A program made the translations under genes and the position numbers. From Octopus vulgaris (lineage: Eukaryota), in assembly GCA_951406725.2 (NCBI GenBank), contig OX597814.1, positions 113,956,001 through 114,020,000 on the forward strand: a stretch of DNA of 64,000 nt. Reading direction: 5' to 3'. The notes under the pieces were generated by a model, which saw nothing but the letters and a program-made list of their open reading frames with translations, had not been told where the DNA came from and searched no databases. This document shows, piece by piece, positions 14,252-23,000 of the stretch; position 1 is the stretch's first letter; each line of letters opens with the position of its first letter.

Positions 14252-14324
<73 letters not shown>

Positions 14325-14419
14325 TGTATGTATGTATGTATATGTATGTATGCATCTATATATATATATATATGTATGTATGTATGTATATATGCATGTA
14401 TGTGTATATGTATGTATAT

Positions 14420-14460
<41 letters not shown>

Positions 14461-14607
14461 TATATGTATATATATATAGATGTATTTATATATATGTATG
14501 TATATATATACATACATACAAGTTCAGTATGTGCAAAGTAATTTATTTTATGCCTAATTATATAATGTATATATGTATATATATATATATATGTATATAT
14601 ATACATG

Positions 14608-14644
<37 letters not shown>

Positions 14645-14741
14645 GTATGTATATATATATATATATATGTATGTATATATATATATTTATGTATATATAT
14701 GTATATATATATTTATGTATATATATATATATATATGTATG

Positions 14742-14774
<33 letters not shown>

Positions 14775-14779
14775 GTATG

Positions 14780-14813
<34 letters not shown>

Positions 14814-14878
14814 TGTACATATATATATATATATTATATACACACTACACACACACACATATATATATAGTATATATG

Positions 14879-14914
<36 letters not shown>

Positions 14915-14951
14915 ATATATATATATATATATATTTATACACATACATATA

Positions 14952-15012
<61 letters not shown>

Positions 15013-15020: not shown

Positions 15021-15280
15021 CATTCACCCACTAGAAATAACACACACAAAAATAACATATTCCGTAAACCAGGAGAAAATTAAAAACATTTACCCTGTAT
15101 ATATATATACTGTTTAATGGTAAACTAACATCAAGCCAATATATAGATTCCTCAGTAAGAAATATATATATATCTATATATAGCGGCCTAGTGGGAAAAA
15201 ATTAAATAGTCATAGACCATTTATAAGTTCAACATCACAATCAAGGAACGGCCATAATAGGCCATTCATCCGTTCTGGCT

Positions 15281-15387
15281 ATTTCTTACTGAGGAATCTA
15301 AGGGCCTATGGAAGATTGGCTTGATTTAATTTAATCAGGTTAGTTTACCATTAAACAGTAGATGAAACGGTGCATCGTATAAGAAAT
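15281..15387 (+). ncRNA. Type I hammerhead ribozyme, intact
   Basis: ATTTCTTA-[CTGAGGA]-ATCTA..TAGAT-[GAAA]-CGGTGCATCG-TA-TAAGAAAT. 8-bp helix I, 5-bp helix II base with inner hairpin GATTGGCTTGATT/AATCAGGTTAGTT, near-palindromic helix III. Predicted cleavage after 15379. Confidence 0.85.
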
Positions 15388-16550
15388 TACAGGGTAAATG
15401 TTTTTAATTTTCTCTGGTTTACGGAATTAATGTTATTTTTGCGGTTGAAGCTTTGGCTGTTATTTCTAGTGGTGAATGGCCTATATGGTTCCTTGATTGT
15501 GATGTTGAACTTATAAATGAACGGTGTATATATATATATATATATGAACGGTGTAATATATATATATATATATACACGAACGTTTCTCAAATAAAGACGT
15601 AGACTTTGTGCTTTACCAAATTACAATCGCAATGTTTCGTGGTGTAGTCAGTTACTATTCCTAACTAGGAAATCATTTCTCCTCATTTACATCATCGTTA
15701 ATGCTCGTTTAATTTATGAAAGACAATGTTTTGTCGATTCGTCTTCTTCTGCACGAGTTTTCGTTTCAATAAAATCGCAACTAATTTCTTATTCCTGATG
15801 CTTTAAATAGTCTAATTTATGACTAGCTACCTTAATCTTATTTAATTATTTCCCCCTAATTAAAACATATAGTTCTATGTCCTAAGATTTTCTTGCAAAA
15901 ATACTAGTGTAATTCTAACACAGATTGTAACAACAGATAACTTATCACGAGATAGTTTCACAGCAAAACACGTCTCTATGCTTCTTAATTTCAATTTGAC
16001 GTAATCAGTAAAATTATTAAGATTCTATAACTAGACATGTTATCAATAATAGCTATATCCAATCAATAAAATTACCGAAACGGCGTATGAAATGACATTA
16101 TCAAATTGATATAATCAATAGCCTTTTCCAAGTGACTTTCACAATAACATTATCACCGTGATGTCAGTTTGTAAATTCATCAAAATATATTGCGTACGAG
16201 TATTAATCGATACCAAATGATTCCGCTGTTTGACTTGCCGTTCAGCACAAATATAACATTTAACACTTTCATTTGTTAGTATTAGTATTAGTATTACTAT
16301 TTTTCTATCTTTATTTTTTTTTTACACAAACCATTCAGCTATAATTTTCAGACGTACAGTAACTATTATCTCGATAAACACATTAGTCAGGAGTCAGTGA
16401 AATAACTTATAAATTTATTTTAGGATTACGTAAGTTGCATTATACTGGAAATAGTTTCAGCGATGGTGGTTTCACGATTCCTTGGTTCCGGGATACGATC
16501 TCAGTACTTGTACAATAGCTTGAGTTTGAGCAATATCTTATGAGATTTTA

Positions 16551-16940
16551 AGGCGGCGAGCTGGCAGAAACGTTAGCACGCCGGGCGAAATGCGTAGCCG
16601 TATTTTGTCCACCGCTGCGTTCTGAGTTCAAATTCCGCAGATGTCGACTTTGCCTTTCATCCTTTCAGGGTCGATAAATTAAGTTCCAGTTACGATATAA
16701 TCGACTTAATCCCTTTGTCTGTCCTTGTTTGTCCCCTCTATGTTTAGCCCCTTGTGGGCAATAAAGAAATAGGTATTTCGTCTGCTGCTACGTTCTAAGT
16801 TCAAATTCCGGCGAAGTCGACTTTGCCTTCCATCTTTTCGGGGTCGATAAATTAAGTAGCAATTGGGTACTGGGGTAGATCCAATCGACCGGCCCCCTTC
16901 CACCAATTTTGGGCCTTATGCCTAGAGTAGAAAAGAATAC
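16551..16940 (+). mobile_element. SINE family A composite with 14-bp TSD
   Basis: CTTATGAGATTTTA at 16537-16550 and 16941-16954 flanks one head plus two body units. Confidence 0.9.
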
Positions 16941-22191: not shown

Positions 22192-23000
22192 AAGGTGGCG
22201 AGCTGGCAAAAACATTAGCACGCCGGGAAAAATGCCTAGCGATATTTCCTCTATCTTTATGTACTGAGTTCAAATTCCATTAGATCGACTTTGCCTTTCC
22301 TTCTTTCAAGGTCGATAAATTAAGAACCATTTGTGTACTGGGGTCAGTCTAATCAACTGGCTCCCTTCCCCAAAATTTCAGGCCTTGTGTCTAAAGTAGA
22401 AAACATTATTTTTTAAGATGACGGCGAGCTGGCAGAATCGTTAGCACGCCAGGCGAAATGCTTTGCGGTATTTCGTCTGCCGCTACGTTCTGAGTTCAAA
22501 TTCCGCCAAGGTCGATTTGCCTTTCATCCTTTCGGGGTCGATATATTAAGTACCAGTTATGCATTGGGGTCTATATAATCGACTTAATCCGTTTGTCTAT
22601 CCTTGTTTTTCCTCTCTGTGCTTAGCCCCTTGTGGGTAGTAAAAAAATAGGTATTTCGTCCGCCGCTGCGTTCTGAGTTCAAATTCCGCCGAGGTTGACT
22701 TTGCCTTTCATCTATTTGGGGTCGATAAATTAAGTACCAGTTATGCACTGGGGTCGATGTAATCGACTTAATCCGTTTGTCTGTCCTTGTTTGTCCCCTC
22801 TGTGTTTAGCCCCTTGTAGGTAGTAAAGAAATAGGTATTTCGTCAGTTTTTACGGTTTGAGTTCAAATTCCGCCGAGGTTGATCTGCCTTTCATCCTTTC
22901 GGGGTCGATAAAATAAGTACCAGTCGAGCACTGAAATGTATGTAATTGACTTACGCCATCCCTCGAACGGGCTGTCCTGGAGCCAAAATTTGAAACCGAT
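22192..23000 (+). mobile_element. SINE family A tandem cluster
   Basis: Two heads (about 22193 and 22422) and four central-domain units. Confidence 0.9.

What the first reader, a model, noticed from the sequence alone, without database searches (positions are those of the whole stretch)
15281..15387. Best-preserved hammerhead: perfect core, 8-bp helix I, extended helix II
All core nucleotides (CUGAGGA, GAAA, GUA) are present. Helix I ATTTCTTA/TAAGAAAT and helix II base ATCTA/TAGAT are perfect. Helix III ACGGT-GC-ATCGT is long enough that it might fold within a monomer. It is the strongest candidate for activity.
Basis: partly seen in the sequence, partly recalled or inferred. Interest (0 to 1): 0.75.

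Follow-up and report, generated by a model that had tools for sequence, protein, structure and literature searches.

The report
Damaged copy of Penelope-inserted hammerhead retrozyme
The self-cutting RNA motif is really in the sequence, but it is one damaged copy among more than 2,600 in a protein-free 491-base jumping repeat of a known kind, whose insertion scars match those of Penelope-type jumping genes and whose ribozyme is predicted to cut best as a pair rather than alone.

Summary
The type I hammerhead at 15281-15387 is real (0 equal matches in 300 resampled windows) and its helices covary across subfamilies. It is not a special locus: it lies in a 251-bp piece of a 491-bp non-coding tandem unit with 2,686 hammerhead matches in the genome, and the same 107 nt recur in 51 of 222 sampled copies. 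The family is a non-LTR retrozyme. Its insertions carry the Penelope footprint: (TA)n targets and head-to-head arms with two fixed 3' ends about 104 nt apart (42 of 49 two-armed insertions), like autonomous Neptune-type elements of this genome, whose tails are only 36-42 nt and share no sequence with it. Helix III is a 12-nt palindrome; folding favours the double hammerhead over the monomer. The window copy has no partner unit, and its eroded antisense arm is predicted to lock the ribozyme (+31 kcal/mol), so it is a weak candidate in vivo. Cleavage, expression and circles are untested. The scan reported this kind of element before on other DNA of this genome.

The parts
15281..15387 (+). Type I hammerhead ribozyme motif, 107 nt (unit positions 157-263); predicted cut between 15379 and 15380
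   Evidence: covariation
15281..15288 (+). Helix I 5' strand, pairs with 15380-15387
   Evidence: 2 of 8 pairs with changes on both sides
15289..15295 (+). Core CUGANGA; N7 = 15293 takes all four bases across subfamilies
   Evidence: G 68, T 62, A 50, C 42 of 222
15296..15363 (+). Long helix II: 5-bp base (15296-15300/15359-15363), internal loop, 18-pair distal hairpin 15308-15351
   Evidence: 3 of 5 base pairs with changes on both sides; distal hairpin nearly invariant, so uninformative
15364..15379 (+). GAAA box, 12-nt palindromic helix III (15367-15378), GUA cleavage triplet (15377-15379)
15269..15519 (+). Plus arm of the insertion: positions 145-403 of the 491-bp unit, 1 mismatch and 8 gap bases against the reference unit, 3' end lost
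15182..15268 (-). Inverted arm, first piece (unit 353-439); inversion junction at 15268/15269
15021..15164 (-). Inverted arm, eroded piece (unit 156-358 in fragments patched with TA/TG); keeps helix I 5' strand, CUGAGGA and parts of helix II, lacks GAAA, helix III and the cut site; antisense to the ribozyme
   Evidence: folding
14252..15012 (.). (TA)n-rich microsatellite, left flank (likely target)
15520..15577 (.). (TA)n right flank

Best explanation
The motif is the type I hammerhead of a 491-bp protein-free tandem repeat with more than 2,600 copies in this genome (a non-LTR retrozyme), and this window holds one eroded two-armed insertion of it, likely written into a (TA)n tract by a Penelope-like (Neptune-type) enzyme acting in trans and likely inactive in place. 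Steps: (1) shown: dispersed young arrays of 1-9 units, (TA)n flanks, head-to-head arms ending at two fixed points (unit about 387 and about 491); (2) shown: helices I, II and III covary and only N7 and H17 of the core vary between subfamilies; (3) predicted: multi-unit transcripts fold as double hammerheads through the 12-bp palindrome and cut into 491-nt monomers; (4) inferred from other retrozymes: monomers are ligated to circles; (5) inferred: a PLE protein nicks both strands of AT-rich DNA, starts reverse transcription at the two fixed sites of one RNA unit and runs through the cut site, giving two arms; (6) predicted: the window copy lacks a partner unit and its antisense arm sequesters the ribozyme.
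For: Family: 491-bp period, 97-100% identity in the best hits; 394 exact copies of a 30-mer; 2,686 matches to a relaxed hammerhead pattern, 0 for the reversed control; contigs of four coded organisms hold it. Selection on the fold: 6 of 37 pairs with changes on both sides, 99.2% of cells paired, slid controls at most 43% (14 hand-picked variants); of 18 genome copies with a changed third base of helix II, 13 are Watson-Crick compensated (4 arrays), 3 wobble, 2 broken singletons. Footprint in 80 loci: 49 simple two-armed, 42 of them with one short and one long end, 89 of 98 outer ends on (TA)n; 117 5' ends spread evenly, 0 at unit 250-262 (3.1 expected). The same anatomy in two autonomous RT plus GIY-YIG families of this genome, tails 42 and 36 nt; PMC11167929 calls this tail unique to PLEs and ties it to two RT start sites. 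One template per insertion: 17 of 20 array-private fixed variants are seen on both arms, 1 arm-discordant site of 3,274. Dimer: palindrome kept in 206 of 222 copies (four variants), double fold 2-9 kcal/mol better than two monomers in 4 of 4 subfamily dimers. Window copy: +31 kcal/mol with the antisense arm.
Against: No autonomous partner found: the unit shares no significant sequence with the PLE loci examined (36, 40 and 30 loci), their tails are 36-42 nt against about 104 nt, and their hammerheads are minimal U3-A8 types. One six-unit array carries a helix III with a broken centre, so perfect dimer pairing is not required. The A10.1-U11.1 pair and the absence of a normal loop 2 may lower activity; in 10.64898/2026.07.22.740005 only 1 of 9 predicted dimers cleaved. 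The 80 loci were taken from the first-listed hits of patterns that require a hammerhead, so the 211 of 222 intact cores are partly forced. 31 of 80 loci are single-armed or complex. Folding energies are models without protein or Mg.
Confidence: 0.78

Rival explanations
1. Same family and same PLE mobilisation, but the template is an uncleaved linear multi-unit transcript and no circle is involved; the ribozyme acts at another step (for example trimming read-through RNA) or only with protein help.
For: PMC11167929: a PLE inserted unprocessed RNA as the main substrate, hammerhead mutants did not affect insertion, and the ribozyme needed the protein. Homogeneous source arrays (0.1-0.7% unit-specific differences) would also give homogeneous daughters. 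Autonomous PLEs here show the same tandem and inverted build.
Against: The canonical C3-G8 core and all three helices are kept across subfamilies 90-98% alike; arms reach 9.3 units; circles were shown for coral, mussel and axolotl retrozymes (PMC7229834).
Confidence: 0.3
2. The ribozyme works well as a monomer, including this copy.
For: Three pairs beyond A15.1-U16.1 plus a tetraloop is longer than the 1-2 bp typical of metazoan hammerheads (PMC4209133); invertebrate retrozymes cut efficiently as monomers (PMC7229834); the hammerhead fold costs only 2.3-3.7 kcal/mol in short or one-unit RNAs.
Against: Monomer helix III -0.1 kcal/mol against -17.5 for the duplex; the central two bases, unpaired in a monomer, change together GC to AT in 13 arrays; the antisense arm blocks this copy in context.
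Confidence: 0.3
3. The piece is a solo terminal repeat (pLTR) of an autonomous Penelope-like element rather than an independent non-autonomous unit.
For: PLE footprint; retrozymes resemble pLTRs in Xenopus (10.64898/2026.07.22.740005); one array runs straight into a PLE 3' fragment through a 3-nt overlap (L162).
Against: Units join head to tail with no ORF between them; no PLE locus examined carries this hammerhead or unit sequence in its 3' end.
Confidence: 0.07
4. A host-domesticated ribozyme with a role at this locus.
For: The ribozyme is intact while the rest of the insertion is eroded.
Against: It is identical to the commonest young variant (51 of 222), so it has had no time to show locus-specific selection; it sits in microsatellite-rich DNA with no host Pfam domain over cut-off in the 13 window frames scanned.
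Confidence: 0.02

Closest known systems
Metazoan non-LTR retrozymes (Cervera and de la Pena 2020, PMC7229834; Li, Clavereau and Pollet 2026, 10.64898/2026.07.22.740005)
   Same: Non-coding tandem units with one type I hammerhead each, GC 37%, dispersed arrays, no LTR/PBS/PPT seen, highly self-paired unit (z = -7.4), PLEs in the same genome.
   Different: Unit 491 nt (typical 150-450; within the 51-972 range of Li et al.); helix II 68 nt; helix III a 12-nt palindrome instead of 1-2 bp plus loop; insertions show two arms and two fixed ends; no sequence link to a pLTR found; expression and circles not shown.
Penelope-like elements, Neptune-type (PMC8557442, PMC11167929, PMC4209133)
   Same: (TA)n targets, inverted 5'-truncated arm, partial tandems, a tail on one end only, palindromic helix III.
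   Different: No ORF; tail about 104 nt against 30-40 nt in print and 36-42 nt here; canonical C3-G8 core and long helix II against the minimal U3-A8 hammerheads of the PLE families sampled.
Dimeric (double) hammerheads of amphibian satellite repeats (as described in PMC7229834 and PMC4209133)
   Same: Palindromic helix III that lets two tandem motifs complete each other.
   Different: The palindrome is 12 nt, so a weak monomer hairpin is also possible.

Membership tests
Type I hammerhead ribozyme | Core CUGANGA, GAAA, UH with three helices, helix I open | tested here: met
Type I hammerhead ribozyme | Helices supported by covariation | tested here: met
   (related sequences, so shuffle counts are not probabilities)
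Type I hammerhead ribozyme | G10.1-C11.1 pair and canonical loop 1-loop 2 contact (6-bp helix I, 4-bp helix II) | tested here: not met
   A-U at 10.1-11.1; 8-bp helix I, 68-nt helix II; Rfam models do not match. This removes it from the 'canonical' subtype only.
Type I hammerhead ribozyme | Mg-dependent self-cleavage after H17 | not testable with these tools
   needs in vitro assay
Non-LTR retrozyme (family level) | Tandem units, each with a type I hammerhead, GC below 50% | tested here: met
Non-LTR retrozyme (family level) | No protein coding, no LTR structure, dispersed copies | tested here: met
   no ORF of 100 aa over 15021-15519 apart from microsatellite frames; no PLE protein match inside arrays; copies on many contigs
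Non-LTR retrozyme (family level) | Expressed as linear and circular monomer RNA | not testable with these tools
   only contigs of runs not on record as RNA were available
Active retrozyme locus (Li et al. 2026 criterion) | [quoted passage not shown] | tested here: not met
   window copy has one complete motif in half a unit
PLE-mobilised element | Two fixed 3' ends (tail), inverted 5'-truncated arm, AT-rich target | tested here: met
   tail longer than published
PLE-mobilised element | Sequence shared with the terminal repeat of an autonomous PLE | tested here: inconclusive
   none in 106 PLE-containing loci from several families; census incomplete
Autonomous Penelope-like element | RT plus GIY-YIG ORF between the repeats | tested here: not met

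The most novel reading that the evidence does not exclude
These long-helix-II retrozymes are circular RNA parasites that hijack Neptune-type Penelope enzymes without sharing their sequence: each circle offers its own pair of reverse-transcription start sites about 104 nt apart, both nicked DNA strands are primed on one circle, and the dimer-only hammerhead cuts multimers while sparing the monomer circle. A second, unrelated 586-bp family in the same window with a tail of about 100-110 nt and an equally long helix II would make this a general class.
Probability: 0.3. Interest if true: 0.7.

Novelty: new variant of a known kind. Interest (0 to 1): 0.4.

Why it matters
The locus itself is ordinary: a broken copy. 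The family matters because the mobiliser of animal retrozymes has been proposed (PLEs) rather than shown, and here the PLE-specific two-start-site footprint is written on a protein-free ribozyme repeat, with young, intact PLE families in the same genome. That gives a ready in vitro test (PLE protein plus circular or linear unit RNA; read the start sites). The long helix II also hides these ribozymes from Rfam models, so such families are likely undercounted.

Tried and rejected
Rfam: no match in the window at gathering score, only AT-repeat noise at E <= 10. Expression: no RNA holder listed; the contigs laid cannot show starts, ends, strand or circles, and none bridged the 15268/15269 junction, which proves nothing. 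Partner search: three genome searches for PLEs gave several Neptune-type families, none sharing sequence with the unit; a 20-nt match behind both hammerheads was reached by 10 of 300 shuffles and was rejected; a 53-nt unit fragment in L257 was not examined further. Homology between the 491-bp and 586-bp families: global score reached by 18 of 200 shuffles, not accepted; they share one 18-nt motif (16 of 18). Clustering of 5' ends at the cut site: none (0 of 117 at 250-262; 12 at 256-285, p = 0.054). Host gene context: 13 window frames gave no host domain over cut-off. Whether the erosion of the window's arms is biological or an assembly error could not be decided. Literature searches listed no paper on cephalopod retrozymes or on this footprint in retrozymes; subscription journals, Repbase and all supplements were not seen, and the supplements of PMC7229834, PMC4209133 and the 2026 preprint may list such families.

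Full report
Observation. A type I descriptor finds three candidates in the window: this one (helices 8/5/5 by pairing alone), one at 44315-44406 and a weak one at 58144. At thresholds 8/5/4 there is 1 match in the window and 0 in 300 resampled windows. The motif folds with z = -3.5; the model forms helix I, the helix II base and a long distal hairpin, but not helix III. A 5-bp helix III would need a 2-nt loop; the possible monomer form is 4 pairs plus a 4-nt loop at -0.1 kcal/mol, whereas the same 12 nt form a 12-bp self-duplex at -17.5. Pair 10.1-11.1 is A-U. Rfam does not see the motif.

What it belongs to. A search of the own genome (2.8 Gb; the animal looks like an octopod by recalled SINEs and genome size, not by any search) returned hits spaced about 490 bp apart. 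They are head-to-tail units of 491 bp (unit = L005:865-1355, cut site after 255). A 30-mer across the 3' half of the ribozyme has 394 exact copies and a relaxed hammerhead pattern 2,686, with 0 for the reversed control. 117 distinct full units fall into eight clusters 90-98% alike. Contigs of four coded organisms hold the unit. The window has only positions 145-403 on the plus strand (15269-15519) and, head to head with it, an inverted arm: 353-439 (15268-15182), then fragments of 156-358 patched with TA/TG (15164-15021), which lack GAAA, helix III and the cut site. Both sides are (TA)n. The plus arm has 8 gap bases and 1 mismatch against the reference unit; whether this erosion is real or an assembly error is open.

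Selection on the ribozyme. In 222 full-length motifs from 80 loci, 211 keep the core, N7 takes all four bases about equally, H17 is A (180), C (41) or G (1), and 51 are identical to the window's 107 nt. These loci came from the first-listed hits, mostly on four contigs, and the patterns demand a hammerhead, so core conservation is partly forced; as a less biased check, the variant tables of the laid contigs list core changes only at N7 (five rows hidden; none). On 14 hand-picked variants, 6 of 37 pairs change on both sides (2 in helix I, 3 in the helix II base, 1 at the centre of the palindrome); the distal hairpin hardly varies and so says nothing. Of all 18 genome copies with a changed third base in helix II, 13 are compensated and form arrays at four loci, 3 wobble and 2 are broken singletons. 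Helix III occurs as ACGGTGCATCGT (160 copies, 61 arrays), ACGGTATATCGT (29, 8), ACGGTATACCGT (15, 5) and ACGATGCATCGT (2, 1), all self-complementary; one array has a broken centre (6 copies) and ten copies carry other changes. A loose end in run X20 shows a further perfect palindrome.

Monomer or dimer. In real two-unit stretches of four subfamilies the double-hammerhead fold beats two single folds by 5.7, 3.1, 8.9 and 2.2 kcal/mol (ensemble), and the inter-unit duplex has probability 0.93, 0.66, 0.63 and 0.97 unconstrained. Monomer activity is not excluded: the fold costs only 2.3-3.7 kcal/mol in short or one-unit RNAs, and invertebrate retrozymes with shorter helix III cut as monomers (PMC7229834). 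For the window copy, RNA from 15040 to 15560 pairs the ribozyme with its antisense arm and the hammerhead fold costs 31 kcal/mol; from 15180 or 15260 it costs 3.6. There is no partner unit in cis.

How it spreads. Of 80 loci, 49 are simple two-armed insertions, 19 single-armed, 12 complex; 42 of the 49 have one arm ending near unit 387 and the other near 491, and 89 of 98 outer ends abut (TA)n; arms reach 9.3 units; 117 5' ends are spread evenly with none at 250-262. So reverse transcription starts at two fixed points about 104 nt apart and runs through the cut site. In 40 of these loci, 17 of 20 array-private fixed variants are on both arms and only 1 of 3,274 tested sites differs between arms; 'private' is relative to the 40 sampled. 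This fits one template unit per insertion, a circle, but also a homogeneous linear multimer. Autonomous elements of this genome (RT plus C-terminal GIY-YIG with a CX4CXXC linker, hence Neptune-type by PMC8557442) show the same build with tails of 42 nt and 36 nt (6 of 10 stretches show both outer ends, all six short plus tailed); the second family has about 100 copies with an identical 233-aa stretch. PMC11167929 shows in vitro that a PLE protein nicks and extends both strands of AT-rich DNA, starts at two internal RNA sites, and that this makes the tail, which it calls unique to PLEs; it also found the hammerhead dispensable for insertion and protein-assisted. Against a simple descent from these PLEs: no shared sequence in 36, 40 and 30 PLE-containing loci, shorter tails, and minimal U3-A8 hammerheads. 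One array runs into a PLE 3' fragment through a 3-nt overlap (L162), either a template switch or a later deletion.

Comparison with what is known. It works like, and by the testable features belongs to, the metazoan non-LTR retrozymes; the window copy fails the two-unit criterion for an active locus. It is not an autonomous PLE. Variant features are the 68-nt helix II, the 12-nt palindrome and the long tail; a second family in this window (586-bp unit) shows the same three traits. Papers seen: PMC7229834, passages, section 14 and part 4 of 6; 10.64898/2026.07.22.740005, parts 1-3 of 5; PMC4209133, outline and parts 1-2 of 4; PMC8557442, passages; PMC11167929, parts 1-2 of 4; PMC6962438, passages (235 hammerhead hits in giant squid). 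No supplements were opened. Searches listed nothing on cephalopod retrozymes. Hammerhead numbering is from established knowledge. Earlier notes of this scan reach the same reading for 359-495-bp families elsewhere in this genome; I had recorded the family and its footprint before that look-up and took from it the one-template test.

Verdict. Observation confirmed, interpretation partly supported. The locus is a damaged member of a real and young retrozyme family; interest lies in the family's Penelope footprint and dimer-type long hammerhead, which make a proposed mobilisation route testable. Interest 0.40; new variant of a known kind.

Noticed in passing
window 44063-44597 (+), hammerhead 44315-44406: Copy of a second, unrelated retrozyme family: 586-bp tandem unit, type I hammerhead with 61-nt helix II, palindromic 8-nt helix III and GUC site, (TA)n flanks, inversions and two fixed ends about 100-110 nt apart.
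   Followed up: partly
window 37434-38318 (-): Internal fragment (C-terminal RT to GIY-YIG, 96% to L091) of a Neptune-type Penelope-like element, cut off on both sides by TA/GA repeats.
   Followed up: partly
L091:5340-5390, L245:3930-3975, L266:2665-2705: The Neptune-type PLE families sampled carry minimal hammerheads with the U3-A8 core variant and a 6-nt palindromic helix III; the variant is described for Schistosoma PLEs in PMC4209133.
   Followed up: partly
L245 family (G000:C2:45342500-45352400 and about 100 other places): Very young PLE family: 4,386-bp unit, 784-aa open frame, identical 233-aa stretch in about 100 copies; a natural source of protein for in vitro tests.
   Followed up: partly
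L162:5146-5682: A six-unit array joins a diverged PLE 3' fragment through a 3-nt overlap.
   Followed up: partly
L040:2581 (-), L070:83 (+), L074:2629 (+), L088:3095 (-), L089:803 (+), L263: Further hammerheads with 31-69-nt helix II and palindromic helix III, apparently other repeat families.
   Followed up: no
L025, L028, L134, L141, L144, L156, L161 and the window copy: Some two-armed insertions have internal deletions, several patched with TA, near the inversion; either repair of inverted repeats or assembly error.
   Followed up: no
window 22467-22924, 55161-55659, 63206-63595, 16600-16864: Tandem 173-196-bp units of a common SINE-like repeat; octopod SINE by recall only.
   Followed up: no
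window 34544-35122 (-), 58843-59301: Frames that look like the 3' ends of LINE-type retrotransposons (by eye; no Pfam match).
   Followed up: no
window 41530-43142: 1.6-kb trinucleotide array (AAT/GAT/AGT mix).
   Followed up: no
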